Virus record (IMG/VR): IMGVR_UViG_3300011337_000358
Direction: 5' to 3' (one strand)
Length of the DNA stretch: 64,000 nt
Origin: a virus
Taxonomy: Duplodnaviria > Heunggongvirae > Uroviricota > Caudoviricetes
Part shown: one piece after another, positions 965 through 61,209 of the stretch
How positions within the stretch are numbered: position 1 is the stretch's first letter
How the letters are laid out: each line of letters starts with the position of its first letter
Notes under the pieces: generated by a model
What the model saw: the letters and a program-made list of their open reading frames with translations, nothing else
Told to the model about the DNA's origin: nothing
Database searches by the model: none
Program-made: the position numbers and the translations under genes

Positions 965-1405
965 ATGTTATCAGATAATCTAAAAGTACTTTTAGCTAGT
1001 ACACAAAGTTTTGCTATTAAAACACAAAACTTTCATTGGAATGTTGAGGGGAGTAATTTTCCACAGTATCATGCATTTTTTGATACGTTATACGGTGATG
1101 TAAGTGCTACTATCGATCCTATCGCTGAATATATCAGAATATTAGGTGCTTACACACCCGGCAGTTTACAACGTTATGCTGAACTAAGTATCATTCAAGA
1201 CCAAATCAAAATCCCACGTGCTCAACTAATGTTTGCTGAATCACTACAAGATTGTGAAAAAATGAGTGAATTAGTCGTTGCTATGTTTGACGAAGCAACA
1301 AACGAACGTCAGCAAGGCATTGCTAATTACATGGCTGAACTACAAGACCTATACGGTAAGAAAGCATGGTTCATTCGTTCTACATTGAAAACAGAACGTG
1401 AGTAA
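965..1405 (+). CDS. dps: Dps-like ferritin (DNA-binding protein from starved cells) homolog
   Basis: 'QNFHWNVEGSNF' matches the Dps signature 'HNFHWNVKGPNF'. Size (~146 aa) and the downstream 'ELSIIQD' helix pattern fit the ferritin-like fold. Confidence 0.75.
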   Translation: MLSDNLKVLLASTQSFAIKTQNFHWNVEGSNFPQYHAFFDTLYGDVSATIDPIAEYIRILGAYTPGSLQRYAELSIIQDQIKIPRAQLMFAESLQDCEKMSELVVAMFDEATNERQQGIANYMAELQDLYGKKAWFIRSTLKTERE

Positions 1406-2675
1406 ATTAGAATTTACCCAGAAAGAATGGGAAAAGATAGAAAATAACGGGACTTATTGTCCCGGTTTATTTAACAGCAAATACATAGAAACTGACGGTG
1501 GACTGAGAGCATGTTGTGTTCAAGATTTAAAAGGTGAACATTATACAAATACAGAATCCTATAACACCACTTCGTTAAAACAAGCCAGACAAAATTCATT
1601 ATCAGGGATTAAAGATTCCAGTTGCGCTAGATGTTGGGAAAATGAATCATTAAACACCAGATCATATAGACAAGGTCTAGTAGAGTCTGCTATTCACTGG
1701 AAAAGTAAAATCAAAGATAATATAAATGTTGACTATTCCATCACAGAACCCACCATAGACTACTTAGACATTAGATTTGATAATATCTGTAATTTAAGAT
1801 GTAGATATTGCAGTACTATTTTTAGTTCTAGTTGGAGACACGAAACTGAGTTACTAGAAAAAGAATTACCAATATTTAAATATATAAAAAGAAGATCAGT
1901 AGATACAAAAATATTGAATAGTGTAACCGATATTGACACGATATTAGCTGACCTTAGAACAGTTAAAAAAATATTTTTTGCGGGTGGCGAGCCATTAGTA
2001 AACGATAAACATTATGAAGTGTTAGAATATCTAATAGATAATAATAGAACCAACATTGAAATAACGTATAATACTAATTTTACAAACATTAAAAAAGTTA
2101 TTCCTTATTGGAAAAAGTTTTCAAACATACACGTGGGTGCAAGTTTAGATGCAAATTATAAAAGAGGAGAATACATTCGTAAAAATCTCGTATGGGACCA
2201 GATTGTAGAAAATAGAAAATTAATGATTGCCGAAGTTCCTCATGTTCAATTTGAAATAAATGCGTCAATGAGTATATTGAATGCGTATAATGTAGTAGAT
2301 TTTCATAAAGAATGGATTAATGATAAATTAATTGGACCTTTTGATTTAACTGCATGGAATTTTGTATCTAAACCTGAACATTATGATATTAGGAATTTAC
2401 CTGACCATCATAAGATTAAATTAAAAGAAATATATCAAACTCATATTGATTGGTTAAACTCCCTCACATCAGGCAATGATATTAAGTTTAAAAGTAAAAA
2501 TGATTCTAGTTTTGCTATTCAATCATATCAAGGTATAATTAATAGGTTAAATTTAAGTAGAAATTCATCTTTTGACAAATTTTGGGAATTTGACAAATGG
2601 TTAGATAATAATAGAGATGAAAACTTTTTTGATGTGTTTCCTGAGTATGAGGACTTTGCTAGATATTTTAGCTAA
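1398..2675 (+). CDS. Radical SAM enzyme with an additional N-terminal Cys cluster; substrate unknown
   Basis: 'DIRFDNICNLRCRYCS' is a canonical CxxxCxxC radical-SAM motif. An N-terminal 'YCPG…ACCVQ…SCARCW' extra Cys cluster is present. GTG start overlaps the dps stop. Confidence 0.7.
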   Translation: MSKLEFTQKEWEKIENNGTYCPGLFNSKYIETDGGLRACCVQDLKGEHYTNTESYNTTSLKQARQNSLSGIKDSSCARCWENESLNTRSYRQGLVESAIHWKSKIKDNINVDYSITEPTIDYLDIRFDNICNLRCRYCSTIFSSSWRHETELLEKELPIFKYIKRRSVDTKILNSVTDIDTILADLRTVKKIFFAGGEPLVNDKHYEVLEYLIDNNRTNIEITYNTNFTNIKKVIPYWKKFSNIHVGASLDANYKRGEYIRKNLVWDQIVENRKLMIAEVPHVQFEINASMSILNAYNVVDFHKEWINDKLIGPFDLTAWNFVSKPEHYDIRNLPDHHKIKLKEIYQTHIDWLNSLTSGNDIKFKSKNDSSFAIQSYQGIINRLNLSRNSSFDKFWEFDKWLDNNRDENFFDVFPEYEDFARYFS

Positions 2676-28459: not shown

Positions 28460-28933
28460 TTATAGACCAATCTTGGGTGGATACATTGGGCCAGACTTTA
28501 TTCGTTCACCACCGTCAAAGTAACTAATTTCTACTGGTAATTCTTTCCAGCCTAATCTATGTGCAGCCATGATACGATGATTACCTTCGTTTACCCAGGC
28601 ACTGCCATCATAGGCCACATTGATAAAAGGTTTGTATTCTTCACTAGAGTGTGAATGTAATGGTAGCTTGCCGGTGTCCTTCATTATTTTCATAATTGCA
28701 ATAAGATCACCTTGACGCACATTTTGTTGTTCGTTTCGCATACCGGGTATTTGTCTTAGTAAGTTAACAGGAATTTCAACTTTTCTGACAGTAGCAGTTG
28801 TCTTTCCCATGTAGGGCAAACCATTACGATCAGGACTTTTTTGCTTGGCATACGCAATAGCATCGTTTAGCCATTCCTCATTAGGCACATCAACACTAAG
28901 TGTTCCTTCAGTTATAAATTCTTTTGCTCTCAC
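28460..28933 (-). CDS. ParB/sulfiredoxin-superfamily protein with T4-type capsid-targeting N-terminus
   Basis: 'GNHRIMAAHRLGWKELP' matches ParB 'GERRWRAAKLAGL'. N-terminus 'MRAKEFITE|G' resembles the T4 capsid-targeting sequence / gp21 cleavage site. Confidence 0.55.
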   Translation of the reverse strand: MRAKEFITEGTLSVDVPNEEWLNDAIAYAKQKSPDRNGLPYMGKTTATVRKVEIPVNLLRQIPGMRNEQQNVRQGDLIAIMKIMKDTGKLPLHSHSSEEYKPFINVAYDGSAWVNEGNHRIMAAHRLGWKELPVEISYFDGGERIKSGPMYPPKIGL

Positions 28934-29604
28934 ATTGATCCTTTAGAATTAACAAACCAGGGGTCAACTATAACTAATTCTCCATTACTACGTTGCATGA
29001 CATTTTCGGTGTGCAAGTCCCAACCAAATTTGTTTATTCTACCCGATTGATATAATAGTTTCATTACACTAAACAAGGTAGCATACGTCTTATAAAAAGT
29101 AACACCTTGCTGTGTCATTGCATTATCTATAAGTTTAGCCATTTTAGATGATATTGGGCTAGAGAAGAATTTCCAAGTTTCAGGATCAGTTAGTGAAGGT
29201 AAGATTTGTTGCCAAGTCTCACCTGTAACAGCATAGTCACTTAATATCCAGACCATTGCTTCTTCAACACTGTTCTTTTTAATAGGCTGAAGATGTTCCA
29301 TGTCAATTTGTATGTAATCCTCACCGGCAATATCGATTGTATTCATTTCATTAAATATAGGTAAACAAGAAATCTCAGGATGATTTTCACAGAATTCGTA
29401 AAACTTTTTAAATACTTTTTCAGCGTGACCACTAGGATCATCTGGCATTAATATTTTAATCACATGACTAGTATCTTTAGCCCATACTCTTGCATCAGCT
29501 CCGCTACCAATATGTTTGTAACCTAGTGATTTTAAATGCGCGGCAATTTCTTTGAAGGCTGGTCCTGTTGCAGCCTCATCTACTGCAAATTCATTGGCTC
29601 TCAT
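28930..29604 (-). CDS. Protein-kinase-like fold protein with capsid-targeting N-terminus (candidate injected kinase)
   Basis: Gly-rich loop 'IGSGADARVW'. Catalytic-loop-like 'WDLHTENVM' (D-L-H-x-x-N). 'LVIVDPWF' is DFG-like. N-terminus 'MRANEFAVDE|A'. Confidence 0.55.
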   Translation of the reverse strand: MRANEFAVDEAATGPAFKEIAAHLKSLGYKHIGSGADARVWAKDTSHVIKILMPDDPSGHAEKVFKKFYEFCENHPEISCLPIFNEMNTIDIAGEDYIQIDMEHLQPIKKNSVEEAMVWILSDYAVTGETWQQILPSLTDPETWKFFSSPISSKMAKLIDNAMTQQGVTFYKTYATLFSVMKLLYQSGRINKFGWDLHTENVMQRSNGELVIVDPWFVNSKGSM

Positions 29605-29783
29605 TTCTTGCGACCCCTAAACCCTACTGGCATCTGCAAATCATTAACGGGAAACATTGCTTTGAACCACTCATCAGTACCAGGCTTAGCAGTAATTTTG
29701 CTACGGTCTATAGGCACAGAAGATGTAGGTTTTCCTCTATGGTCGGTAACTCCTGCAAGTCTTTTAAGTTGATCTATGTTCAT
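29601..29783 (-). CDS. Hypothetical small protein
   Basis: ORF coupled within the minus-strand operon. Confidence 0.4.
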   Translation of the reverse strand: MNIDQLKRLAGVTDHRGKPTSSVPIDRSKITAKPGTDEWFKAMFPVNDLQMPVGFRGRKK

Positions 29784-30334
29784 AGACTCTTACCCCAGCG
29801 TGTGTTAATCACATTCCAGTTGATAATCTTCCACTGTTCAGCCAAATACTTTTTCTTATCAGCACCGTAGTCTAATATCCACGCATGTTCCCACCAATCA
29901 ACTAATAACAATATATCATTGCGTACTTCATGGTTCTTAATTGTTTTAATTTTACCATCAGTTGCTAAATATACCCACCCACTACCTTGTATCTTCATTG
30001 CTTCAGTTTCAAACTGTGACTTCATATTATCGTATGAGCCAAAATGTTTGTTAATAAAGCCCATCATGGGGCCGTTTGGATTGTTTTTATTTCTTACTTC
30101 ACGGAACTGAGGGAACAATGTATTATGTAAGAATGCACCTGCATAGTTAAATTCTTTATCTCCGATATCTTTGTTATATCTTTCAGCATAGCCATGTGCT
30201 AACTTGCCATAGTGTAAGTCTATAGTGTCTACCGACAAAACCGGACTTAGTTCTTTTGGCTCAAAATTAAGCTGAATGATTTCTATATCTTGAGGTTTTG
30301 ACTTATCCTCAAGTAACTGAATTAAATCACGCAT
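29780..30334 (-). CDS. Fe/Mn superoxide dismutase-like protein
   Basis: C-terminal 'VDWWEHAWILDYGADKKKYLAEQWKIINW' matches SOD 'DVWEHAYYL…Y……INW' (Asp/His metal ligands). 'HYGKLAHGYAERYNK' and 'AFLHNTLF' resemble the SOD N-terminal His blocks. Length is 184 aa. Confidence 0.6.
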   Translation of the reverse strand: MRDLIQLLEDKSKPQDIEIIQLNFEPKELSPVLSVDTIDLHYGKLAHGYAERYNKDIGDKEFNYAGAFLHNTLFPQFREVRNKNNPNGPMMGFINKHFGSYDNMKSQFETEAMKIQGSGWVYLATDGKIKTIKNHEVRNDILLLVDWWEHAWILDYGADKKKYLAEQWKIINWNVINTRWGKSL

Positions 30335-32115
30335 CAGTGTTTCAATAATAATGTAGAAATGATGTTAGGATCGTTAGCACTGATATCACCTTCACCGGGT
30401 GCAACGATAACATTGTACTTCATACCGGCTGGTATTGATTTACGTTTAGCCATGTACTGATTATAGTCTAATATAGAGTTGGCACTTAATCCATACTCTT
30501 TTGCAAGACGATTCTTTAGTTCAGGTAACTTATCAGGTTGTACTTGCCATTGGCCTTCTGACCCCTTAACTAAGTTTTTCTTTTCGTCCTTAACTAATAA
30601 ATCTTGGAACAAGTCATCTGGAACAATACGACTATTCTTAGTTTTATCTAAGTTAGCATCACTTGCCTTAACTTGTTTCTCTTGTGATGTATGAGCACCT
30701 TCACTCCAATTGATAATAAAGTTAGGTGGCTTCTGACCTAATGCGGCACCAGCCATCTTTGTGTAAGCATAGAACTTAGTATCAGGATGCTTTGCAGCCA
30801 TCTTTAATGCCAAGTCTAAATATTCTGGGCTGAAGAAGTCACCAGCATCATGCCAACGAATAGTAGTTTGCCAACCTTTAGGGAATTTCTTATCACCCTT
30901 TTGACCAGCTTGTTCTTCTTTGCTAATCTCACTACTTAATTGATTGAAGAACCCGTCTGGATCATTCAATAGATATGTTAATATTCTTCCGTCACTTTGC
31001 CATGCGTTCTTAAACTGAATTTTTCCGCCCTTCATAGCAAAACAATCTATTTTACATGAGCCTGCGCCCGGGCATGTATTAACAATGATTAGTTTATTTG
31101 TTTGTTCGTCTAGTGCAATACCAGTCAATGCCGCAAAGCCAACGTTGAAGAATTGTTCAAACTCTCCGTTACTATGCTTCATCTTTTCGTTTTGCTTTAG
31201 TAATGATTTAGGGCGTTGTGACAATGTTTTCTTAACTGCATCCTCATCATATGTTGCACCATCTGGACCTAAGTATTCAACTACACTACTACGGTGGATA
31301 TAAGGCATTTTGTATCTATCTGTTTTTGTTTTACCAGATACATATTTTTCATTACCCTTTTTATCTACCTTAACATTACCTGCTTTGTCTGTATCAGGAG
31401 TACCAACAATACGTTTCATGTAATCTTGGAACTCATCGCCACCAAACTCACGGCTACTTGCTGGCAGTTTAGTTGCTTCTTCTAAGCCAGATAGTTTGCG
31501 AATTCTATCTAAGCCTTCCGCCACACCTTCATTTGCACTTTGACTAGCCAATTTATAAATATACGCAGTACCGTTGGGTAATAGATACGTAGTATAATTT
31601 CCTATACCCCTCTCACCCATTTGAGCCTGTTGAATTTTTATCATTTTTGCGCCGCGCGGCGTTGGGCCATCTTTAGGTACCAGCATACCTTTATATTCTT
31701 TGCCTCCATGGTGCACAACTATACCAGTGTCGCTTCGTTCTACTTTTTCTGCTGTATCAACATTTTGATTTGGCATCTGACCACCAGATTTTTCTGCACT
31801 GGCTTGAAATCCTTGTTGAGCCATTTGTTGTGCGGCACTAGGTGACATTTGGCCATCAGCACCAAGACTAACTCTTGCGTGTGCAGAGCCAGCTGACCCT
31901 AACGCACCCATTGCACCTAATGCCATTGCACCTGTTGCGGCTGCTTTTTTCCAATTAATTTCGTCAAGTTGCTCTTCCGTCATACCTTCTTCTGATTCTT
32001 CATCGGGCATATCACCCGCTTTAGTAACGAATTGCTGAGGTGTCATAATTTGGATGCCACTAGGTGCTCCAGGCATTTTTGGCTCTACGCCTTCGAATAG
32101 TTCTTTGAAATTCAT
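30334..32115 (-). CDS. Large internal-protein-like protein (593 aa) with capsid-targeting N-terminus; Alt-like by architecture only
   Basis: N-terminus 'MNFKELFE|GV' (compare T4 Alt 'MELITELFDE'). Gly/Ala-rich linker. Shares 'EEQLDEIN' with ORF 2-955. Confidence 0.5.
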   Translation of the reverse strand: MNFKELFEGVEPKMPGAPSGIQIMTPQQFVTKAGDMPDEESEEGMTEEQLDEINWKKAAATGAMALGAMGALGSAGSAHARVSLGADGQMSPSAAQQMAQQGFQASAEKSGGQMPNQNVDTAEKVERSDTGIVVHHGGKEYKGMLVPKDGPTPRGAKMIKIQQAQMGERGIGNYTTYLLPNGTAYIYKLASQSANEGVAEGLDRIRKLSGLEEATKLPASSREFGGDEFQDYMKRIVGTPDTDKAGNVKVDKKGNEKYVSGKTKTDRYKMPYIHRSSVVEYLGPDGATYDEDAVKKTLSQRPKSLLKQNEKMKHSNGEFEQFFNVGFAALTGIALDEQTNKLIIVNTCPGAGSCKIDCFAMKGGKIQFKNAWQSDGRILTYLLNDPDGFFNQLSSEISKEEQAGQKGDKKFPKGWQTTIRWHDAGDFFSPEYLDLALKMAAKHPDTKFYAYTKMAGAALGQKPPNFIINWSEGAHTSQEKQVKASDANLDKTKNSRIVPDDLFQDLLVKDEKKNLVKGSEGQWQVQPDKLPELKNRLAKEYGLSANSILDYNQYMAKRKSIPAGMKYNVIVAPGEGDISANDPNIISTLLLKH

Positions 32116-32804
32116 TTCTTGTGGTTCCTAATAAATTGTTCTGCTAGCATTACTAATTCTTGCATTTGCTCAATAGATTCACAATGCCATCTACGTAAAC
32201 TCTTATTAATATTGCTGTTTGGATCACGTGCTGTTTTAGCACTTGTACGATGTTTCTTCATACCGCGCATTCTAGCGCAAAAACTAGCACGGCGCTTTGC
32301 GTCCTTGCTACCCTTTTTAATCTTGCTTGGCTTTTTAGTAACTGCTGTTTGAATCTTGCTACCAGGATGACTACGGCGATAACTACTTACAGATTTTTTA
32401 CTCATCCCACCTACACGTTTGTTATTGTGCTTTGACCAATTCTCGCCTTCCGCCACACCTTGACTTAATAATTTTTTAACAGATATTGGACCTGATTGAT
32501 TTTCTGCACCGGTTAAAAATTCATTTCCCCATGGGGTTATCCAACCATCAAATTCAATATCATTGCCTTGAACCATAATATCATTATTACCATCAAGGTT
32601 TTGATATCCATTCAACTCTTTGTACCATTTTCTTAATGATTGTAACTTGTATGGACCTTTGTAGCCTTGTTTTTTCAAAATAGAAATAATTTCCGGAGTA
32701 AATCCAACTGGTTGACCCTCAGATACTTTCTCTTTTTTGCTAATAGCAATAGCGGCTTGTTGTGCTGGATTTGCGGCTTCTGTTAAAATTTCTGTTATTC
32801 TCAT
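32112..32804 (-). CDS. Basic internal-protein-like protein with capsid-targeting N-terminus
   Basis: N-terminus 'MRITEILTE|A'. Very basic C-terminal half. First gene of the minus-strand operon. Upstream 'GATAAATA' (rc of 32860-32867) is T4 late-promoter-like. Confidence 0.5.
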   Translation of the reverse strand: MRITEILTEAANPAQQAAIAISKKEKVSEGQPVGFTPEIISILKKQGYKGPYKLQSLRKWYKELNGYQNLDGNNDIMVQGNDIEFDGWITPWGNEFLTGAENQSGPISVKKLLSQGVAEGENWSKHNNKRVGGMSKKSVSSYRRSHPGSKIQTAVTKKPSKIKKGSKDAKRRASFCARMRGMKKHRTSAKTARDPNSNINKSLRRWHCESIEQMQELVMLAEQFIRNHKK

Positions 32805-32822: not shown

Positions 32823-32851
32823 TTGACTTTATTGCGTAGTTGTGCTACACT
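32823..32851 (+). promoter_or_regulatory. Promoter TTGACT-17-TACACT for uvdE. The divergent region also carries rc 'GATAAATA' (32860-32867) for the minus-strand late operon.
   Basis: Hexamers; T4 late promoter consensus is TATAAATA. Confidence 0.5.
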
Positions 32852-32880
32852 GTATATATTATTTATCACTTTGGGCTTTT

Positions 32881-33909
32881 ATGTACACAAATCAATCAGT
32901 CAAACGTATCGGCTTTGCTTGCAAATGGGCAGAAATCAACAAGAAAGGTGAAATTGCTTCAGCCGAAGGTCTTAACACTGGCGGCACAACTCATGCTTGG
33001 GCAAAGCGTAATAGTCGTAATGTAGTAGAAGAAAAGATTATGGATGTTGCAAAACGCAATATTATGAATACACATGCACTAGTTAAACGTGTCGCTACAC
33101 TAGAACCACAATTACGTATGTTGCGTCTTACTAGCGATATGCTGAGTTTTTACACACTAGATGAATATAAAGGCTTTTGGCAAAGTAGTGATGTACAAAA
33201 CAGCTTGGCTCGATGGTTTGCCCCGATCGGGGAAACAGCACGTGCCAATGATGTTCGTCTTAGTTTTCACCCTGACCAGTTTGTAGTTTTAGCAAGCGAC
33301 CGTGAAGAAGTAGTAAATAAGAGTATTGAAGAATTTGAATATCATTGTGACATGGTTCGTTGGATGGGCTATGGCAAAGAGTTTCAAGACTTCAAAGTAA
33401 ATGTACATATCTCGGGACGTAAAGGCCCACAAGGCATCAGGGATGTGTACAACAGATTGTCGCCAGAAGCGAGAAACACACTAACACTAGAGAATGAGGA
33501 ATACACACATGGACTTACTGACTGCTTATCATTATCTGACCTCGTACCTACGGTCATGGACATACATCACAATTGGATTCGTGAGGGAGAATATATTTCC
33601 CCCAATGATGACAACGTTAAAAAGGTTATTGATAGTTGGCGCGGTATTAGGCCTACTTTACATTACTCCGTCAGCCGTGAAGATGTACTTGTCGGGCATT
33701 CCGGATCACAGTTACCCGATCATGGTGCGTTGATTGAATCTGGATACAGTAAGCAAAAACTTCGGGCACATAGTGATTACTATTGGAACGAAGCTGTGAA
33801 CGATTGGGCATTGACATTCATTGATAAATTTGATATGATGTGTGAATCGAAGGCAAAGAATCTTGCCAGCTTTAAATTATTAGAGAGATATAAATGTTTG
33901 ACAAAATAA
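32881..33909 (+). CDS. uvsE: UV DNA damage endonuclease (UvdE/UvsE) homolog
   Basis: The ordered blocks match B. subtilis UvsE: 'RIGFACKW' / 'RFGFVSNA', 'VRLSFHPDQFVVLAS' / 'LRTSFHPNQFTLFTS', 'VNVHISG' / 'INIHIGG', 'TLTLENEE' / 'RMTLENDD', 'DIHHNW' / 'DFHHF', 'RAHSDYV' / 'RSHADYV'. Promoter TTGACT-17-TACACT at 32823-32851. Confidence 0.8.
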   Translation: MYTNQSVKRIGFACKWAEINKKGEIASAEGLNTGGTTHAWAKRNSRNVVEEKIMDVAKRNIMNTHALVKRVATLEPQLRMLRLTSDMLSFYTLDEYKGFWQSSDVQNSLARWFAPIGETARANDVRLSFHPDQFVVLASDREEVVNKSIEEFEYHCDMVRWMGYGKEFQDFKVNVHISGRKGPQGIRDVYNRLSPEARNTLTLENEEYTHGLTDCLSLSDLVPTVMDIHHNWIREGEYISPNDDNVKKVIDSWRGIRPTLHYSVSREDVLVGHSGSQLPDHGALIESGYSKQKLRAHSDYYWNEAVNDWALTFIDKFDMMCESKAKNLASFKLLERYKCLTK

Positions 33910-55789: not shown

Positions 55790-56995
55790 ATGACCTCTGA
55801 ATCTAAACTAAACCATTGTTCCTTTTGTGGCAATCACAAAGATAAAGTTACTAAACTTATCGTAAGCGAAGATGTTGCTATTTGTAGTGACTGTATTGAA
55901 TTATGCAACCAATTAGTTATTGATGAACTTGTAACCAGTGAATCGGCTAATGTAAAAGAAAACACCATTAATGACCCTCATTTAATTAAAGAGTACCTGG
56001 ATGAGCATGTAATTGGACAAGATTCTGCTAAAACAGTACTGAGTGTGGCTATTGCTAATCATTATAAACGCATTACCTATCCACCAAAAGACTTAGAAAT
56101 TTCTAAAGGTAATGTCTTAATTATTGGGCCTACTGGATCAGGTAAAACACTATTAGCTAAAACAGTAGCAAAATACTTAAATGTACCTTTCATTGTTGCT
56201 GATGCTACTAGTTTAACTGAAGCAGGGTATGTGGGTGATGATGTTGAATCAATGATTAGTATGCTTGTTAATGCCGCAGGTGGAGATCCTAAACTAGCAG
56301 AACGTGGTATTGTGTTTGTTGATGAAATTGATAAGATTGCACGTAAGAGTGAGGGTACTAGTATTACCCGTGACGTATCAGGTGAGGGTGTTCAACAGGC
56401 GTTATTGAAATTAGTTGAAGGCACCGTGTGTCGTATTCCAGCTAGTGGCGGACGCAAACATCCCGGTGGTGATATGCTAGAAATTAATACAAAAAATATA
56501 TTGTTCATTGCAGGTGGGGCATTTGTTGGATTAAAAGAAATTATTTCTAATCGTAAAAACGGTACCAGTATTGGATTTGGGGCAAATATTAAAGAAAATA
56601 AAAAAGAAGGTGAACTAAGCCAAGTAACTCCTGACGATTTGACTAAGTTTGGTATGATTCCTGAGTTTATCGGCCGCTTTACTACTACAGTTAGCATTGG
56701 TGAATTGGGGAAAGATGAGTTAAAACAAATATTAACTTCCGTTAAAAACAATTACATCAAGCAATATCAATATCTATTAAGTATTGATGGTATTGAATTG
56801 AACTTTGAAGATGGTGCTTTGAATCAAATTGTAGATAATTGCTTGAAATTAAAGACCGGAGCACGTGGATTACATACTGAAATTGAACGTGTATTGATGC
56901 CACATATGTTTAATGTCAACAAGTATAAGGAAAATAACGTAAAAGTGATAAATATAAGTCAGGACGCAGTTATAGAACCAAAAATTATGTTATGA
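55790..56995 (+). CDS. clpX: ClpX ATP-dependent protease unfoldase subunit
   Basis: N-terminal C4 zinc-binding domain 'CSFCGN…CSDCIELC'. Walker A '[11 protein letters not shown]'. Length 401 aa. Confidence 0.9.
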
Positions 56996-57213
56996 GTATT
57001 AAAGGAAGACGAGTTATTGTACAAGACGGGAATTTTGAAAAAGCATTACGCAAATTCAAAAAGAAGATATCCGACCTGGATTTATTACAAGAAGTTCGTG
57101 ACCGTCAACAATATGTTAAACCTACTGTTAAACGCAAACTAGCAAAAAGCCAAGCTAAACGTAGATGGCAAAAATATCTACGTGACCAAAGTCTACCCAA
57201 GAAACTTTTTTAA
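56992..57213 (+). CDS. rpsU: Ribosomal protein bS21 (RpsU) homolog
   Basis: '[41 protein letters not shown]' matches E. coli S21 '[41 protein letters not shown]'. Length 73 aa. Confidence 0.85.
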
Positions 57214-57261
57214 CCTAAATATTATAATTTATTGCGTATTAGTAGTATAATAAATACATAC

Positions 57262-57313
57262 GTAGATGCCGATAATCGGGTCTACATATAGTCATCTTGC
57301 TTAATAAAGGAGA
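57262..57313 (+). promoter_or_regulatory. Candidate ROSE-like RNA thermometer in the Hsp20 5'UTR
   Basis: Nested hairpin 'GTAGATGCCGATAATCGGGTCTAC' followed by 'UUGCU' (57297-57301) positioned to pair with SD 'AGGAG' (57308-57312), with the G·G mismatch typical of ROSE elements. Confidence 0.4.
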
Positions 57314-57319
57314 AAACAA

Positions 57320-57772
57320 ATGACAAAAACTTTAACCCTTCGTTCCCTCGACATTCCGTCGCTTCATAAATTTGGTATCGGTTTCGATTCAATGTTTGAT
57401 GAATTGCACAGAATTCATTCTCAACAATCCAACACAAACTATCCCCCATATAACATAGTCCAAATTAATGAGGACGAGTATATGATTAGTGTAGCTGTAG
57501 CTGGATTTGGTCTTGATAATCTTTCAATAACAAAAGACAAAAACTTTTTGATTATTGAAGGGAAGGAATATCAATCTGATAGCGAAGAAATCATACCAAA
57601 CTATCTACACAAAGGTATTAGCAACAGAGACTTCCGTCGTGAATTCAAACTTGCAGACCACGTAGAGATAGTGGATGCAAATTTAGAATTGGGTATCCTC
57701 AACGTTCATTTAAAACGTGAAGTTCCTGAAGAACAAAAGCCCAAGTCTATTGCAATTACTTATACTAAGTGA
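57320..57772 (+). CDS. Small heat-shock protein Hsp20/alpha-crystallin family (IbpA-like)
   Basis: 'FRREFKLADHVEIVDANLELGILNVHLKRE' is the alpha-crystallin domain C-terminal block. Confidence 0.85.
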   Translation: MTKTLTLRSLDIPSLHKFGIGFDSMFDELHRIHSQQSNTNYPPYNIVQINEDEYMISVAVAGFGLDNLSITKDKNFLIIEGKEYQSDSEEIIPNYLHKGISNRDFRREFKLADHVEIVDANLELGILNVHLKREVPEEQKPKSIAITYTK

Positions 57773-57795
57773 TATAATAGAATTTCAATAAATAA

Positions 57796-57817
57796 GTGTG
57801 CGGGGTAACTCGCACAC
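57796..57817 (+). promoter_or_regulatory. Stem-loop (GTGTGCG-N8-CGCACAC) in the clpS leader, after a TGATATAAT extended -10
   Basis: 7-bp perfect inverted repeat. Confidence 0.35.
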
Positions 57818-57832
57818 AACTTAAATAAAATT

Positions 57833-58138
57833 ATGTCCAAAACTGATACTAAAGTAAAAATCAAACCTAATCTCGCTTTAAGAGAGCCGCCCTTGTTTAA
57901 AATCATTTATTTCAATGATGATGTTACAAGTCTGGAATTTGTTGTGGGAAGTTTAATTGATTATTTTAATTATAATCAGGATACTGCTACTTCTATTAGT
58001 GAAAATATTCATCATCAAGGAAGTGCTGTGGTTGCAGTACTACCTTATGAAATTGCAGAGCAAAAAGGCATCGAAGTTACACTAGAAGCTAGAAGCCAAG
58101 GTTACCCGCTTCAAGTTAAGATTGAAGCTGAAGTTTAA
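57833..58138 (+). CDS. clpS: ClpS adaptor protein
   Basis: 'PLFKIIYFNDDVTSLEFVVGSL' matches E. coli ClpS '[23 protein letters not shown]'. Confidence 0.85.
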   Translation: MSKTDTKVKIKPNLALREPPLFKIIYFNDDVTSLEFVVGSLIDYFNYNQDTATSISENIHHQGSAVVAVLPYEIAEQKGIEVTLEARSQGYPLQVKIEAEV

Positions 58139-58836
58139 ATAGTTATTTCAATTCGTTTAGCCCAATAAGGGTTTCGATTGTAATATGAATTGTTGATGTA
58201 GTTGATACCATTAATAGTGGTATCAACTACTTTTCCATATGTGCCATAGACCCAATTAGTTACTTTACTTTCGGTATCATATGTTAAAGTAATTCCCAAA
58301 CTTAGTTGATTTTTTACTGATTCCGGTTGTTCTTTAAAATACAAATCTACACTAGGCACAGAGTTAGATACTAATATAATTTTTTTAACATCTAAGTGTT
58401 TTTGTAATCGTTCAACCGTATTTTTAAGATATAGTATATCTTCATTCCTGTGTTGTTCAATTAATGCTTCTGTCGTTGCATCAGATGGTATAGTATTTCC
58501 GTACCATCCATTTGCTCCAGCTAATGCAATGCCATCAACAATTACCACATGATGGTGCATCACTGCAACATTTTTTATGGTTTGACATAGTTTATGAATT
58601 TCGTTGGTTCGTGCTTCTATATCAGACGTTTGATGATATTCAGTAGAACCTAAGGTATAGAAAATACCCTGATAAAACCTAGACAGATGCAATAGAGTTT
58701 GCCTAATTGTGCGTAAATCACTACTAATATTACCTGCAATAATGAGGTATAAACTAGTTGCTTTGCCTTCCCAATTAAAACTACTTTCGGGTGACAAATT
58801 TAAGTCACTGATTACGTCAAACCCTATTGTTGTCAT
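58135..58836 (-). CDS. Hypothetical protein, possibly a degenerate calcineurin-like metallophosphoesterase
   Basis: 'VISDLNL' (DxH-like with H→N), 'IIAGN', 'MHHHVVIVDG'. Weak. Confidence 0.35.
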   Translation of the reverse strand: MTTIGFDVISDLNLSPESSFNWEGKATSLYLIIAGNISSDLRTIRQTLLHLSRFYQGIFYTLGSTEYHQTSDIEARTNEIHKLCQTIKNVAVMHHHVVIVDGIALAGANGWYGNTIPSDATTEALIEQHRNEDILYLKNTVERLQKHLDVKKIILVSNSVPSVDLYFKEQPESVKNQLSLGITLTYDTESKVTNWVYGTYGKVVDTTINGINYINNSYYNRNPYWAKRIEITI

Positions 58837-58839
58837 CAG

Positions 58840-59094
58840 TTATTTTGCTACGCTAATTTTTGGCTTTCTTGGTGCCTTTGGCTTAGCAGGTGCTTTAGCT
58901 TTTGGGGCAGCCGGTCCTCGGGCGGCGGCTGTGCGAGCCGGAGCTTTTGGCTTAGCTGGTGCTTTTTCAGCAACCGGGGCAGGTGTTTCCACTTTTGCCG
59001 GTTCAACCGCTTTTGGTGCTTCTACTTTGTACGGGGCGGGCGCCTCGACTGGTTTAGCTGAAAAGCCAAATAAACGCTTGATAAAGTCTATCAT
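58840..59094 (-). CDS. Small basic Ala/Lys/Pro-rich histone-H1-tail-like protein
   Basis: 'APKAVEPAKVETPAPVAEKAPAKPKAPARTAAARGPAAPKAKAPAKPKAPRKPK'. Confidence 0.5.
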   Translation of the reverse strand: MIDFIKRLFGFSAKPVEAPAPYKVEAPKAVEPAKVETPAPVAEKAPAKPKAPARTAAARGPAAPKAKAPAKPKAPRKPKISVAK

Positions 59095-59175
59095 TTCTAT
59101 CTCCTAAACATATATTTACTCGGGTTTGAACCATAAACATTTTTTCCTTAAGTATATGAAGTTTCCAAAAGTTAA

Positions 59176-59685
59176 GTGTATCATAAATACATGATGTTCA
59201 GAAAAGCCAATCTTGCCGAACTTATGCGTGAGGAGTTGCCTCCGATAGCATACCAAAAACGCCTTTGTTACAGGACCGACCGTGACGAAGTTGTAATGCT
59301 TTATCGTCTAATTAATAAGACAATTTTTGACAACAAATTAAAGATGCCAGAGATTGAAGTTATGGCACGATGCCGTAAATATTGGGGAATGTGCTATGGG
59401 TCATACGAAACACCCACAAAAAACAAAAGCTCCTGCAAGATTAGAATGATGGACAAATGGTACTGTCGGCAATGGCTTATTACAGTATTAGCACACGAAA
59501 TGTGCCATCAATATCAATGGGATGTGCAGGGTATAGAACGTAGAAAGATCGGAAAAGATCCTATTATGAGTCATGGTCCTAGCTTCTTTGTATTCAGAGA
59601 TAAATTAAAGAAGAATGGAATCTCATTAAAAAGCGCACATGGCCGCAAACGTTGGTTCAAACATCAAAACTTCTTTAAGTGCTAA
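59176..59685 (+). CDS. SprT-like zinc metalloprotease domain protein
   Basis: 'VLAHEMCHQYQW' matches the SprT 'HEMCH' signature. Confidence 0.6.
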   Translation: MYHKYMMFRKANLAELMREELPPIAYQKRLCYRTDRDEVVMLYRLINKTIFDNKLKMPEIEVMARCRKYWGMCYGSYETPTKNKSSCKIRMMDKWYCRQWLITVLAHEMCHQYQWDVQGIERRKIGKDPIMSHGPSFFVFRDKLKKNGISLKSAHGRKRWFKHQNFFKC

Positions 59686-59689
59686 CATT

Positions 59690-59697
59690 GATAAATA
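59690..59697 (+). promoter_or_regulatory. T4 late-promoter-like motif 'GATAAATA' ~20 nt upstream of the capsid-targeted protein gene
   Basis: 7/8 match to TATAAATA. Same motif in front of the minus-strand capsid-targeted operon. Confidence 0.4.
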
Positions 59698-59715
59698 CTT
59701 CATAGGTATATTATT

Positions 59716-61140
59716 ATGAGAGCACTAGAATTTTTAACTGAAGCCCCACTTACACCAGGAAACTTATTTGACCCTCGTCACTTAAACTGGAGACCACAAA
59801 ACTTTCTTAAAAAGTTAGAAGCAGGGACACCGTTCGTAGATAAATCCGGTAATAAGTATTACCCGGAAGATGGAGAATTTGAAAGAATTACTCCTATCGT
59901 TACTCAAATATTACAACAGTTAGAAAAACAACCTAACGCCCCTCTACCAAGTATCAGCATCAATATGAAAGATGTTGGTCCTGTTTCATTGAGCAAATTA
60001 GAAAAAGCAGATTTGCAAACAGCAGGTGGACAGTTTACTAGTGACGTTAATGTACAACCATTAGGTATTGGTATTGCGGCTGATCCTATCAATAAACCCG
60101 GCACAAAGCCTGCTGATAAAATAACAATGACAACTGATGAAGAAATTCAGGCTGCATTGGACAAACATCAAGAAATTAAAGCTGGTCAATTGTATGAGGT
60201 TATCATGTCTAATAAGACACTTGACCAAGCAGGAGAGTTGGGTAAAGCAATCAAGCAAGCCGCAACTGAAATGAATAATAATCAAGTACCTATTATTAAA
60301 CAGTATGCGGAATCAGTACAAAAGAAAATCGCAATTGATGCAGGTGAATATTTAGGTGTATTGGCAATGGTCAAAGATGTTGCTGACTTTCCCAAAAAAG
60401 CCGCATTCTTAAACTTTCTACGTGCAAATGATTTTGAAAATTTATCAATTATTTTTCCCGGAGAACAGAACTCTCCATTAGGTGACAGTTACGGTGTACA
60501 AAATGCAGAAACTGGTCATAATATTGTTATCAGTAGCAAAGGTGGTAAGGGTAGTACGGCATCTGGCGCCGCCCCTAGCCTAGGAGGTTTAAAGACTTCT
60601 GTTGACAAACGTGCATCGAAGATTAGAAAAGGTAACGGACTCGATTTTATTAATCATATTATTCAAGTTAGTCCAACTTCAGCGCAAGGCTTTGCAGGTA
60701 TTAATTGGATTGCAAATAATTATCCAGAATCAGTGCCAGACAAATATAAAAATTTAGTTCCATTCTACAGCGAAGATGTGAAACAAATATTGAAAAACAT
60801 TCGCACAAAGGGCGCAGAACCTATTCCAGAAAAGTTCTTATCATTAATCAGTGCTCCTAGTATTCAAGCAAGTAAAGGTACTGATGGTGGTAAGTTAGTA
60901 TATGTTGTAACTAAAGATTTGGTGAGTGCCATCAATGCAGGTATCATTAAAAACTTTAGAACTACTGTGTTAGAACTATTAGATGAGAACTTTGTTCAAA
61001 TCTTCTCACGCATTATTGGTGGCAAACTTGTTACCAAAGTATTGTGGCCAGGTAAAGTTGATGGCAATGTATCGTTGCATACTAAGATTTCTCCGGGAGA
61101 TCCAGGTGGTGCAGGATTAAGTTTCAAGGTTACCGATTAA
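59716..61140 (+). CDS. Internal-protein-like protein (474 aa) with capsid-targeting N-terminus
   Basis: N-terminus 'MRALEFLTE|A', paralogous to the minus-strand block N-termini. Upstream 'GATAAATA' at 59690-59697 is late-promoter-like. Confidence 0.55.
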   Translation: MRALEFLTEAPLTPGNLFDPRHLNWRPQNFLKKLEAGTPFVDKSGNKYYPEDGEFERITPIVTQILQQLEKQPNAPLPSISINMKDVGPVSLSKLEKADLQTAGGQFTSDVNVQPLGIGIAADPINKPGTKPADKITMTTDEEIQAALDKHQEIKAGQLYEVIMSNKTLDQAGELGKAIKQAATEMNNNQVPIIKQYAESVQKKIAIDAGEYLGVLAMVKDVADFPKKAAFLNFLRANDFENLSIIFPGEQNSPLGDSYGVQNAETGHNIVISSKGGKGSTASGAAPSLGGLKTSVDKRASKIRKGNGLDFINHIIQVSPTSAQGFAGINWIANNYPESVPDKYKNLVPFYSEDVKQILKNIRTKGAEPIPEKFLSLISAPSIQASKGTDGGKLVYVVTKDLVSAINAGIIKNFRTTVLELLDENFVQIFSRIIGGKLVTKVLWPGKVDGNVSLHTKISPGDPGGAGLSFKVTD

Positions 61141-61152
61141 CACTAAAATCAA

Positions 61153-61181
61153 TTGACTTTGACATAAACTTCCGTTATAAT
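61153..61181 (+). promoter_or_regulatory. Promoter TTGACT-17-TATAAT for clpP
   Basis: Hexamers. Confidence 0.6.
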
Positions 61182-61209
61182 AGTGGAAACATTTATATAA
61201 AGGAAGTTT

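What the first reader, a model, noticed from the sequence alone, without database searches (positions are those of the whole stretch)
29780..30334. Phage-encoded Fe/Mn superoxide dismutase-like protein in the internal-protein operon
The C-terminus 'VDWWEHAWILDYGADKKKYLAEQWKIINW' mirrors the SOD metal-binding 'D-x-WEHAYY…Y……INW' block, and the N-terminal His blocks are partly conserved. A phage SOD, possibly virion-associated, together with the Dps homolog at 965-1405 suggests active management of oxidative stress or Fe/ROS-based host defence. One of the canonical His ligands appears substituted, so the protein may be catalytically altered.
Basis: partly seen in the sequence, partly recalled or inferred. 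Interest (0 to 1): 0.6.

Follow-up and report, generated by a model that had tools for sequence, protein, structure and literature searches.

The report
Compact phage Fe/Mn superoxide dismutase with leader
A jumbo bacteriophage carries a real but unusually small iron/manganese superoxide dismutase gene with an intact active site and a short conserved N-terminal tag like those that load proteins into T4 phage heads, so the enzyme may be delivered into the host with the DNA, though this is unproven.

Summary
The ORF at 29780-30334 (minus strand, 184 aa) is real and is a Fe/Mn superoxide dismutase (SodFM) homologue. Pfam Sod_Fe_C scores 4e-24, the best PDB sequence match 3e-23, and the AlphaFold model matches crystal SODs at TM 0.77-0.83.

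All four ligands (H41, H70, D146, H150) are present and invariant. The changes are in the second sphere and in size:
- HxxxHH has become HYGKLA.
- The interface Tyr has become Ile153.
- The water-coordinating residue is a C-terminal His (H135).
- About 25 and about 12 residues are deleted.

The protein belongs to a clade of compact SODs from large phages (PA5oct group 38% identity; thousands of metagenomic relatives). Nearly all members carry a 10-25-residue N-terminal extension with a hydrophobic-x-Glu core, the cleavage motif of the T4 prohead protease.

In this lineage the SOD gene heads a hypervariable array of genes that almost all start MRAxEFITE (42/67 ORFs versus 7/592 in the flanks), reminiscent of the T4 internal-protein locus. 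Deeper relatives instead link the SOD to Fe-S assembly genes (IscA-like, a full Suf operon).

Verdict: an active SOD that supports redox and Fe-S maintenance in the infected cell. Virion packaging is plausible (about 0.35-0.4) but unproven.

The parts
29780..30334 (-). SOD gene: 184 codons plus stop (TGA at 29780-29782). It overlaps the stop of the upstream GP88 gene and the start of the downstream 60-aa ORF.
30281..30334 (-). N-terminal extension, residues 1-18 (MRDLIQLLEDKSKPQDIE). It lies outside the SOD fold and is conserved as MR[DE][IL]IxLLE[DE]KxKPxDIE.
   Evidence: E. coli SodB/SodA start at residue ~18 of this protein. Residues 1-13 have pLDDT < 50. It is conserved in 120 homologues. 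Its codon-position entropy, 0.49/0.26/1.09, matches the core's 0.40/0.25/1.14.
30308..30316 (-). Leu7-Leu8-Glu9: a candidate prohead-protease site of the L/I-x-E type, which would cleave after Glu9.
   Evidence: The motif is defined for T4 gp21 in PMC9026906. E9 is invariant and L8 is >= 90% conserved. Cleavage itself is inferred, not shown.
30086..30280 (-). Truncated N-terminal two-helix hairpin domain (residues 19-83). It holds ligands His41 (30212-30214) and His70 (30125-30127), gateway Tyr49, and Leu45/Ala46 in place of the HH of HxxxHH. About 25 residues are deleted between the helices.
   Evidence: Pfam Sod_Fe_N is partial and below cut-off (22.6 bits against 27). The model has helices 35-54 and 60-76.
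29798..30076 (-). C-terminal alpha/beta domain (residues 87-179). It holds Trp120, the C-terminal water-coordinating His135 (29930-29932), X(D-2) Leu144, ligands Asp146 (29897-29899) and His150 (29885-29887), bridging Glu149, and Ile153 in place of the interface Tyr.
   Evidence: Pfam Sod_Fe_C 4.3e-24. Columns are mapped, codons.
30334..32115 (-). Upstream operon gene: 593 aa with a GP88 domain (PF17338) and the leader MNFKELFE.
   Evidence: It is the conserved neighbour in about 24 related loci.
32112..32804 (-). First operon gene: 230 aa with a C-terminal DUF6321 domain and the leader MRITEILTE.
   Evidence: DUF6321 also occurs in structural-module proteins of cyanomyophages.
29601..29783 (-). 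60-aa ORF directly downstream of the SOD, overlapping it by ATGA. Its N-terminus is MNIDQLKRLAGV, not the MRA leader.
   Evidence: It is conserved after the SOD in L020, L032, L037 and L089.
28930..29604 (-). 224-aa kinase-like protein (phrog_15752, T7 0.7-like; weak Kinase-PolyVal match) with the leader MRANEFAVDE.
28460..28933 (-). 157-aa protein, weakly ParB-like, with the leader (V/M)RAKEFITE. It is the last gene of the operon.
59716..61140 (+). A further gene with the same leader (MRALEFLTE): 474 aa, no family match, between the SprT-like and ClpP genes.
965..1405 (+). It is a possible partner in iron and ROS management.
   Evidence: PF00210 7.2e-16 and phrog_3636 4.8e-29

Best explanation
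The gene encodes a catalytically competent but stripped-down Fe/Mn superoxide dismutase of a clade confined to large (mostly jumbo) phages.

Mechanism. A single Fe or Mn ion is held by His41, His70, Asp146 and His150. It cycles between the 3+ and 2+ states to convert superoxide to O2 and H2O2. Tyr49 gates the site and a C-terminal-domain His (His135) holds the metal-bound solvent, as in the SodFM3/4 subfamilies. The proton-relay and interface pair His30...Tyr166' of classical enzymes is replaced by Leu45/Ile153, and the helical hairpin is shortened. Kinetics and metal preference are therefore probably altered (X(D-2) = Leu, as in the cambialistic S. aureus SodM).

Role. In the infected cell it most likely acts together with phage-encoded iron and Fe-S functions to keep superoxide from destroying Fe-S enzymes and releasing iron. 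Those functions are the Dps-like ferritin and radical-SAM enzyme in this window, and IscA-like or Suf genes next to the SOD in relatives.

Leader. The conserved 9-residue leader ending in Leu-Leu-Glu, and the position at the head of an array of MRAxEFITE-leader genes, suggest that the precursor is also recruited to the prohead core, trimmed by the gp21-type protease, and carried in the virion.

Status of each step. Shown: homology, intact ligands, fold, clade, leader conservation, gene linkage. Inferred: activity, metal, role in Fe-S protection, cleavage and packaging.
For: Homology and fold:
- Pfam Sod_Fe_C 4.3e-24; PDB sequence hits to 160 SODs.
- AlphaFold pLDDT 83, and Foldseek TM 0.77-0.83 to crystal SODs only.

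Active site:
- The four ligands plus Tyr49, Trp120 and Glu149 are invariant in 51 homologues. They are kept in essentially all full-length compact-clade members at 31-60% identity.
- His135 falls in the column of E. coli SodA Gln146. The SodFM framework is in PMC10172142.

Expression:
- The PA5oct homologue is made as protein (GenBank note ESI-MS/MS).

Fe-S linkage:
- IF1-SOD-IscA-like order in relatives at 77-86% identity and at about 41-45% identity.
- SOD followed by SufB-C-D-S-E in L158.
- Dps-like and radical-SAM genes in the window.

Leader:
- The extension is conserved and under protein-level purifying selection, and it is not part of the fold.
- A similar hydrophobic-x-Glu core is present across the clade and absent from cellular SODs.
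- The slot next to the SOD is enriched for MRAxEFITE leaders: 42/67 versus 7/592, p = 2e-41.
- The T4 CTS and the L/I-x-E rule are in PMC9026906. The related phage PA5oct has a Peptidase_S77 protease.
- In L146/L144 the SOD sits between the head-tail adaptor and tail sheath genes.
Against: - No activity or metal data exist for any member of this clade. None was found in the library searched.
- His30 and the interface Tyr are lost, and the Sod_Fe_N profile scores below its cut-off. A strongly reduced or different activity cannot be excluded.
- The SOD leader (MRDLIQLLE) is only loosely like the cassette leader (MRAxEFITE).
- The PA5oct MS list also contains RNR, ThyA, FolE, ligase, ClpP and MazG, so MS detection does not show packaging.
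- In PA5oct the strict leader motif is not significantly enriched among MS-positive proteins (4/90 versus 7/356, p = 0.16).
- The prohead protease of this particular phage lies outside the window and was not seen.
- No IscA-like or IF1-like gene lies in this 64-kb window.
Confidence: 0.6

Rival explanations
1. Purely cytoplasmic auxiliary enzyme. The SOD acts only inside the infected cell, protecting Fe-S assembly, radical-SAM enzymes and DNA from ROS. The N-terminal extension has another role, such as partner binding, oligomerisation or stability, and the protein is never packaged.
For: - Deep, recurrent linkage to IscA-like and Suf genes and to IF1.
- In PA5oct and Vibrio phage 2.275.O the gene lies beside ClpS, S21 and HSP20 housekeeping-type genes.
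- The Vibrio phage SOD and a few clade members lack the extension.
- PA5oct MS is contaminated with soluble enzymes, and the leader enrichment in PA5oct is not significant.
Against: - The extension is retained across the clade with a hydrophobic-x-Glu core and is under purifying selection, yet it is unstructured in the model.
- Constant adjacency to leader-bearing cassette genes in two different genome arrangements.
- Position inside the neck/tail module in L146.
Confidence: 0.4
2. Non-catalytic SOD-fold protein recruited for a structural or regulatory role, as with the Fe-SOD-like PAP4/FSD3 subunits of the plastid RNA polymerase. It could be, for example, a head-core component or a metal carrier.
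For: - PAP4/FSD3 chains appear among the PDB sequence hits, so SOD folds can be co-opted.
- His30, His31 and the interface Tyr are lost, the hairpin is truncated, and Sod_Fe_N is below cut-off.
Against: All four ligands, the gateway Tyr, Trp120, Glu149 and a water-coordinating His are conserved over a clade diverged to about 31% identity. This is the signature of selection for catalysis.
Confidence: 0.08
3. Recently captured host sodB/sodA copy or an assembly contaminant. The gene would be an ordinary cellular SOD gene sitting in a phage contig.
For: The 'phages' collection contains such cases: SOD hits in records that are really Salmonella, Staphylococcus or Listeria DNA (hits H14-H28).
Against: - It is only about 27-32% identical to E. 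coli SodA/SodB.
- It belongs to a distinct compact clade found on viral contigs of up to 525 kb.
- Its GC content equals that of the window (0.36 versus 0.37).
- It is translationally coupled to phage genes.
- The same operon was recovered on independent metagenome contigs.
Confidence: 0.01

Closest known systems
SOD homologue of Pseudomonas jumbo phage PA5oct (EST35_0261; annotated sodB in phages Callisto and MIJ3)
   Same: - 38.5% identity over residues 1-182, similar length (182 aa).
- Same HxxxL, Asn-His and Leu(D-2) features.
- N-terminal extension with IAE|A.
- Jumbo phage of the T4 supergroup, with the same ClpX-S21-HSP20-ClpS...ClpP gene set nearby.

   Different: - In PA5oct the gene follows ClpS in the proteostasis cluster, not a leader-gene operon.
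- None of the other operon proteins has a PA5oct homologue.
- It is uncharacterised and is called 'hypothetical protein' in the PA5oct record.
SodFM3/SodFM4 subfamilies of Fe/Mn SODs (Sendra et al. 2023, PMC10172142)
   Same: A C-terminal-domain His as the water-coordinating residue and Gly at the N-terminal Gln position. SodFM4 has already lost the last His of HxxxHH. Some leader-bearing relatives are HxxxHT with Tyr-Tyr (P0144, P0172, P0186), bridging to this type.
   Different: - Both later His of HxxxHH are lost (HYGKLA) and the interface Tyr is lost.
- The hairpin is shorter, whereas SodFM3/4 have long hairpins and are tetramers.
- It has an N-terminal leader and is phage-borne.
- No phylogeny was run, so placement is by motifs only.
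Cambialistic/Fe SODs of Bacteroidales (P. gingivalis 1ues/1qnn; B. fragilis SodFM2 8avl)
   Same: Best sequence matches among solved structures (3e-23 to 7e-22, about 30% identity), with TM about 0.78.
   Different: They use an N-terminal Gln, keep HxxxH and Tyr-Tyr, are about 191 aa with no leader, and are cellular.
T4 internal proteins IPI/IPII/IPIII and Alt with their capsid targeting sequence
   Same: A short N-terminal leader ending in L/I-x-Glu on otherwise unrelated proteins, a hyperplastic locus, and a T4-type Peptidase_S77 protease in the lineage. The T4 CTS is MKTYQEFIAE (from memory); the window leaders are MRAKEFITE, MRALEFLTE and MRITEILTE.
   Different: No T4 internal protein is a SOD. 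Cleavage and packaging are not demonstrated here. The SOD's own leader deviates from the cassette consensus.
Virion-packaged Cu,Zn SODs of giant eukaryotic viruses (e.g. Megavirus chilensis)
   Same: A virus-encoded superoxide dismutase reported among virion-packaged redox enzymes (PMC9405923).
   Different: An unrelated fold and metal (Cu,Zn beta-barrel), a eukaryotic virus, and a different packaging route.

Membership tests
Fe/Mn superoxide dismutase (SodFM; Pfam PF00081 + PF02777) | C-terminal alpha/beta domain (PF02777) above the gathering score | tested here: met
   84.9 bits against 20.9; residues 87-179 cover profile positions 2-102 of 102
Fe/Mn superoxide dismutase (SodFM; Pfam PF00081 + PF02777) | N-terminal alpha-hairpin domain (PF00081) above the gathering score | tested here: inconclusive
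   22.6 bits against 27; only profile positions 3-48 of 82 matched. The model still has the two long helices (35-54, 60-76), with about 25 residues deleted between them.
Fe/Mn superoxide dismutase (SodFM; Pfam PF00081 + PF02777) | Four metal ligands: His, His, Asp, His | tested here: met
   H41, H70, D146 and H150 align with E. coli SodB H26, H73, D156 and H160. They are invariant in 51 homologues.
Fe/Mn superoxide dismutase (SodFM; Pfam PF00081 + PF02777) | Water-coordinating second-sphere Gln or His, and gateway Tyr34 | tested here: met
   His135 lies in the column of SodA Gln146. Tyr49 is invariant.
Fe/Mn superoxide dismutase (SodFM; Pfam PF00081 + PF02777) | HxxxHH motif and the interface Tyr (His30...Tyr166' pair) | tested here: not met
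   H41-YGK-L45-A46, and Ile153 in place of Tyr. The same loss is seen across the compact phage clade. SodFM4 also lacks the last His, so this marks a variant and is not grounds for exclusion.
Fe/Mn superoxide dismutase (SodFM; Pfam PF00081 + PF02777) | Overall two-domain SOD fold | tested here: met
   The top 50 Foldseek PDB hits are all Fe/Mn SODs, TM(query) 0.72-0.83
Fe/Mn superoxide dismutase (SodFM; Pfam PF00081 + PF02777) | Metal binding and superoxide dismutase activity | not testable with these tools
   Needs recombinant protein, metal analysis and an activity assay
T4-type capsid-targeted internal (ejected) proteins | Short N-terminal leader outside the folded domain, ending in L/I-x-Glu | tested here: met
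   MRDLIQ-L7-L8-E9. The extension precedes the SOD fold, has pLDDT < 50 and is conserved. The motif definition is in PMC9026906. This is sequence evidence only.
T4-type capsid-targeted internal (ejected) proteins | Gene lies in a variable locus of unrelated genes sharing the leader | tested here: met
   42/67 slot ORFs against 7/592 flank ORFs carry the leader. Five of six operon genes in the window carry it.
T4-type capsid-targeted internal (ejected) proteins | Phage encodes a gp21-type (Peptidase_S77) prohead protease | not tested
   The head genes are outside the window. The related phage PA5oct has one (PF03420, 5e-24). A scan for relatives of that protease did not return contigs of this lineage.
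T4-type capsid-targeted internal (ejected) proteins | Protein present in purified virions and N-terminally trimmed | tested here: inconclusive
   The PA5oct homologue is flagged ESI-MS/MS, but so are many soluble enzymes. The N-terminus was not determined, and leader enrichment in the PA5oct MS set is not significant (p = 0.16).

The most novel reading that the evidence does not exclude
The SOD is a true capsid-internal, ejected protein. It would be made as a precursor, targeted to the prohead core by its 9-residue leader, cut after Glu9 by the gp21-type protease, and injected with the DNA. The infection would then start with a dose of superoxide dismutase before any phage gene is expressed. 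The SOD would be the conserved anchor of an internal-protein-like, rapidly shuffling arsenal of injected effector enzymes (GNAT acetyltransferases, kinases, ParB-like proteins, GP88, DUF6321) in a widespread group of uncultured jumbo phages. This would be the first Fe/Mn SOD delivered by a phage particle. It would point to superoxide, or Fe-S damage, as an immediate-early barrier to infection.
Probability: 0.35. Interest if true: 0.75.

Novelty: new variant of a known kind. Interest (0 to 1): 0.5.

Why it matters
Fe/Mn SODs are among the best-studied metalloenzymes, yet I found no biochemical work on this phage clade in the library searched. The clade is the smallest natural form seen here (a core of about 165 residues). 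It lacks the His30/Tyr166 relay and uses a C-terminal His, which makes it a natural experiment for the current question of how second-sphere residues set Fe versus Mn preference.

For phage biology there are three points:
- Large phages repeatedly pair a SOD with Fe-S assembly genes, up to a full Suf operon. This indicates that superoxide damage to Fe-S enzymes limits phage production in oxic waters.
- The T4 capsid-targeting principle appears to operate in distant, uncultured jumbo phages, with a recognisable leader (MRAxEFITE). That leader can be used to predict their injected effector repertoires from sequence alone.
- If the SOD itself is packaged, ROS management would begin at the moment of DNA entry.

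Tried and rejected
- A near-identical DNA search of the phage collection found nothing. The phage is uncultured, and only protein-level relatives exist.
- PHROGs has no family for this SOD.
- The PA5oct and MIJ3 papers do not mention the SOD, and the PA5oct supplementary tables are not held. The MS evidence therefore comes only from the GenBank note.
- None of the other operon proteins has a PA5oct homologue, so the PA5oct proteome could not be used to test them.
- The strict leader motif in PA5oct occurs in 4/90 MS-positive ORFs and 7/356 others (p = 0.16). This is not significant, so it is not used as support.
- A scan for relatives of the PA5oct prohead protease returned 40 loci, none on contigs of the window's lineage. 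The protease and capsid cleavage sites of this lineage remain unseen.
- The promoter/terminator scan around the operon was at background level (25 found, 21 expected).
- No tRNAs are present.
- Literature searches for a characterised phage Fe/Mn SOD found nothing relevant.
- The 'host gene or contaminant' reading was rejected on identity, clade, GC content and synteny.
- The pseudo-enzyme reading was rejected as the main explanation because every catalytic residue is conserved.
- The model coordinates could not be read by script, so ligand geometry and the position of His135 rest on alignments, not on measured distances.
Full report
**1. The observation**

The minus strand of 29780-30334 holds an ATG-to-TGA ORF of 184 codons. 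It is the third of six co-directional genes at 28460-32804 whose stops and starts overlap. Plus-strand genes flank this block on both sides.

Homology is secure:
- Pfam Sod_Fe_C matches residues 87-179 end to end (E = 4.3e-24; 84.9 bits against a cut-off of 20.9).
- Sod_Fe_N matches only its first half and stays below its cut-off (22.6 against 27 bits).
- phmmer against all PDB sequences returns 160 superoxide dismutases. The best are the Porphyromonas gingivalis and Bacteroides fragilis enzymes (3e-23 to 7e-22).
- An AlphaFold2 model built on 51 homologues has mean pLDDT 83 and pTM 0.78. Every one of its top 50 Foldseek PDB matches is a Fe/Mn SOD (TM 0.72-0.83).

**2. The ligands**

Three alignments disagree: phmmer to P. 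gingivalis SOD, MAFFT with E. coli SodB and SodA fetched from MG1655, and MAFFT with 85 family representatives. All place His41, His70, Asp146 and His150 on the ligands His26, His73, Asp156 and His160 of E. coli FeSOD.

These four residues are invariant in 51 homologues of 78-86% identity, as are Tyr49 (gateway Tyr34), Trp120 and Glu149 (bridging Glu159). They are kept in essentially all full-length members of the wider clade down to about 31% identity. The codons were checked.

The differences lie elsewhere. I use the SodFM1-5 framework of Sendra et al. (PMC10172142).
- The HxxxHH motif is H41-Y-G-K-L45-A46, so both later His are lost. SodFM4 loses only the last one.
- The N-terminal Gln position is Gly66. 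The column of the C-terminal Gln of E. coli SodA holds His135 (Asn134-His135, invariant), the 'HCterm' state typical of SodFM3/4.
- X(D-2) is Leu144, the residue found in the cambialistic S. aureus SodM.
- The interface Tyr (Tyr163 in FeSOD, Tyr166 in human MnSOD), which hydrogen-bonds His30 of the other subunit, is Ile153. The His...Tyr pair is thus replaced on both sides.
- About 25 residues between the two hairpin helices and about 12 before Asp146 are deleted.

The protein therefore looks catalytically competent, with a rebuilt proton-relay and interface region. Metal preference cannot be called from sequence.

**3. Whose gene it is**

The window has no near DNA match among 50,697 phage records. 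Its family-B DNA polymerase is 44-49% identical to those of Sinorhizobium phage Phosso, Agrobacterium phage Atu_ph07, Klebsiella phage RaK2/K64-1 and E. coli phage 121Q.

The window also encodes ligase, UvdE, a Dps-like ferritin, a radical-SAM enzyme and a ClpX-S21-HSP20-ClpS...ClpP cluster. That cluster is syntenic with Pseudomonas jumbo phage PA5oct. The window thus comes from an uncultured jumbo phage of the T4 supergroup.

Evidence that the gene and operon are genuine and widespread:
- The exact SOD protein and its operon recur on independent metagenome contigs.
- The big protein collection holds more than 3,600 homologues, the top 120 all about 184 aa and 78-86% identical. One of them is named SodA of an 'uncultured Caudovirales phage', and that cluster's longest contig is 369 kb.
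- IMG/VR has 398 loci, on contigs of up to 525 kb.

**4. A phage clade of compact SODs**

In cultured phages the only good matches are the PA5oct group (38.5% identity, full length) and Vibrio phage 2.275.O (36.5%). The PA5oct-group gene is annotated sodB in Callisto and MIJ3 and 'hypothetical' in PA5oct. The other hits are ordinary cellular-type SODs.

An exhaustive HMMER search of 1.8 billion cluster representatives gives 34 clusters at E <= 1e-30. In their alignment, the short proteins (about 170-190 aa) share HxxxL, Asn-His, Leu/Ile at X(D-2) and a variable residue at the interface Tyr position. Cellular-type hits have HxxxHH and Tyr-Tyr. A few leader-bearing relatives are HxxxHT with Tyr-Tyr (P0144, P0172, P0186), which suggests a link to SodFM4. 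I ran no phylogeny, so this is a motif-level inference.

**5. The N-terminal extension**

Residues 1-18 (MRDLIQLLEDKSKPQDIE) precede the point where cellular SODs begin. Residues 1-13 are modelled with pLDDT below 50.

The extension is conserved in the 120 closest homologues as MR[DE][IL]IxLLE[DE]KxKPxDIE, with Arg2 and Glu9 invariant. Among 64 distinct gene sequences, its codons show the same pattern as the catalytic core. Mean entropy at codon positions 1/2/3 is 0.49/0.26/1.09, against 0.40/0.25/1.14 for the core. It is therefore translated and under purifying selection.

Across the whole compact clade the extension varies in sequence and length but keeps a hydrophobic-x-hydrophobic-hydrophobic-Glu core. 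Examples are MQNIREIITLVEAAS, MTEDVRKLINLIEAAG, MYNFIKNLTEGR, MKISDFLVEKE and PA5oct MNDSIKKYISIAEAAS. Cellular SODs have no extension.

The T4 prohead protease gp21 cuts after Glu in L/I-x-E. The first ten residues of IPIII act as a capsid targeting sequence (CTS), with residues 8 and 10 governing cleavage (PMC9026906; PMC3012670). The T4 CTS is MKTYQEFIAE (from memory). Leu7-Leu8-Glu9 of the SOD fits that rule.

**6. The operon and the cassette array**

Of about 107 ORFs in the window, a loose leader pattern picks out seven. Five are in this operon: MRITEILTE (DUF6321 protein), MNFKELFE (GP88 protein), MRDLIQLLE (SOD), MRANEFAVDE (kinase-like) and MRAKEFITE (ParB-like). The sixth is MRALEFLTE on a 474-aa ORF at 59716, and the seventh is a probable false positive.

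The 80 IMG/VR relatives show two genome arrangements:
- The window type: UvdE(-) | DUF6321-GP88-SOD-[variable]-| epimerase(-), in about 24 loci.
- IF1-like-SOD-[variable]-IscA-like, in about 45 loci.

In both, the stretch directly downstream of the SOD is a variable slot. Of its 67 distinct ORFs, 42 begin with M[KRN]x(1-4)[EDQ][ILFV]x(1-3)E, mostly MRA[NKTS]EFITE. Several more do so from an internal start. Only 7 of 592 ORFs further out match (Fisher p = 2e-41).

The bodies of the slot proteins are unrelated: GNAT acetyltransferases, PolyVal-type kinase-like proteins, DUF6934 and ParB-like proteins. This is the organisation described for the T-even internal-protein genes, a diverse set of proteins with only a conserved CTS (PMC3012670).

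Two further points bear on the head-targeting reading. PA5oct has a T4-type Peptidase_S77 prohead protease. Some of its MS-detected head proteins start in the same style: gp150 next to the portal gene (MKINDIITEG), VKIKDILVES, MKILEFNLTEK and the capsid propeptide ...ALTEG.

The leader's function is inferred by analogy.

**7. Is the SOD itself packaged?**

For packaging:
- Its conserved leader.
- Its constant position at the head of the cassette array in two arrangements.
- Its location between the head-tail adaptor and tail sheath genes, followed by a leader ORF, in L146/L144.
- The GenBank note 'ESI-MS/MS' on the PA5oct homologue. This marks the 93 products found by mass spectrometry of purified particles.

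Against packaging:
- The same note is on RNR alpha and beta, ThyA, FolE, QueD, FtsH, ligase, ClpP, MazG and RNase H. That preparation carried abundant soluble enzymes, so it proves only that the protein is made.
- The strict leader motif is not significantly enriched among PA5oct MS-positive proteins (4/90 versus 7/356, p = 0.16).
- The SOD leader departs from the cassette consensus.
- A few clade members, including the Vibrio phage enzyme, have no extension.

I put packaging at about 0.35-0.4.

**8. What it most likely does**

The most deeply conserved neighbours of the compact SOD are Fe-S cluster genes.
- An IscA/SufA-type carrier (PF01521) lies directly downstream. Its start overlaps the end of the SOD gene in L012 and in L005-L008. 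This holds in relatives of 77-86% identity and in clades only about 41-45% identical (L140, L141, L149, L150).
- A complete SufB-SufC-SufD-SufS-SufE/FeS_assembly_P operon lies downstream in L158.
- The window itself adds a Dps-like ferritin and a radical-SAM enzyme.

From established biochemistry, superoxide destroys exposed [4Fe-4S] clusters and releases iron, Suf is the stress-resistant assembly route, and Dps sequesters iron. The coherent reading is a phage-borne kit that keeps Fe-S enzymes working and limits Fenton chemistry during infection. The SOD would be its superoxide-removing member. This is inference from gene linkage and needs experiment.

**9. Comparison and novelty**

Phage Fe/Mn SOD genes are already annotated in GenBank (Callisto, MIJ3, Vibrio 2.275.O, an uncultured Caudovirales phage). 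The bare statement 'phage encodes a SOD' is therefore not new.

I found no study of such an enzyme in the library. The PA5oct and MIJ3 papers do not mention it. The SodFM survey text does not contain the words 'phage' or 'virus'.

What is new here:
- The definition of a compact, leader-bearing, HCterm, HxxxL clade restricted to large phages.
- Its recurrent linkage to Fe-S assembly genes.
- Its position at the head of a T4-IP-like cassette array.

Virion-packaged SODs are known only as Cu,Zn enzymes of giant eukaryotic viruses (PMC9405923).

I rate it a new variant of a known kind, with interest 0.5. The packaged-SOD reading, if true, would deserve about 0.75.

Noticed in passing
L020-L099, directly downstream of the SOD gene (e.g. 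L058 8563-12426, L082 3742-9159, L063 9458-12167); window 28460-29604: This is a hypervariable slot filled with unrelated genes of 150-730 aa that nearly all begin MRA[NKTS]EFITE (42/67 distinct ORFs versus 7/592 in the flanks). They encode GNAT acetyltransferases, PolyVal-kinase-like, DUF6934 and ParB-like proteins. It looks like a T4 internal-protein-type effector cassette array in uncultured jumbo phages.
   Followed up: partly
window 59716-61140 (+): A 474-aa ORF with no family match starts with the same leader (MRALEFLTE). It sits between a SprT-like gene and ClpP, about 28 kb from the operon.
   Followed up: partly
L158 8600-13404 (also partly L160, L163, L169): A phage contig carries a complete Suf Fe-S assembly operon (SufB, SufC, SufD, SufS, SufE fused to FeS_assembly_P). 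It lies immediately downstream of its compact SOD, with UvdE upstream.
   Followed up: partly
L005/L006 7778-8875; L012 5750-6875; L149 7725-8872: A translation factor IF1 homologue (PF01176), the SOD and an IscA/SufA-like protein (PF01521) form a conserved gene trio. It persists in relatives from 86% down to about 41% SOD identity. The IscA-like start overlaps the end of the SOD gene in L005/L006 and L012.
   Followed up: partly
window 55790-61797 (+): A proteostasis/translation cluster ClpX - ribosomal protein S21-like (56992-57213, by eye) - HSP20 - ClpS ... SprT-like - ClpP is syntenic with PA5oct. There the SOD gene follows ClpS.
   Followed up: partly
window 29601-29783 (-): The 60-aa ORF after the SOD starts MNIDQLKRLAGV. 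This resembles the N-terminus of the PA5oct MS-detected structural protein at 127321-128817 (MFNINDILRLAGV), possibly a second type of shared N-terminal tag.
   Followed up: no
window 30334-32115 (-), residues ~1-300: The GP88-domain protein has a long low-complexity N-terminal half with an acidic stretch and a Gly/Ala-rich hydrophobic segment (AAATGAMALGAMGALGSAGSAHA). That segment could be membrane-active.
   Followed up: no
window 32112-32804 (-); L171 950-2860; L172 2087-2788: The C-terminal DUF6321 domain (...RRASFCARM[RK]GMKK...INKSLR.W.C) is shared with hundreds of T4-like cyanophages and pelagiphages. There it ends proteins encoded inside the structural module (between gp16 and gp17 in P-HM1; called 'structural protein' in Sf-FS3).
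   Followed up: partly
window 965-2675 (+): The Dps-like ferritin gene (965-1405) overlaps the start of a 425-aa radical-SAM enzyme gene (1398-2675), which suggests co-expression of iron storage with an Fe-S enzyme.
   Followed up: no
window 32842-33909 (+); L158 6453-7469: A UV-damage endonuclease UvdE gene lies divergent from the operon. UvdE is also the near-upstream neighbour of the SOD in the MYNFIK-leader clade, so UV and ROS damage functions travel together.
   Followed up: no
PA5oct MK797984 (L014-L019): The 93 'virion' proteins flagged ESI-MS/MS include RNR alpha/beta, ThyA, FolE, QueD, FtsH, DNA ligase, ClpP, MazG and RNase H. The published structural proteome of PA5oct probably contains co-purifying soluble enzymes.
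   Followed up: yes
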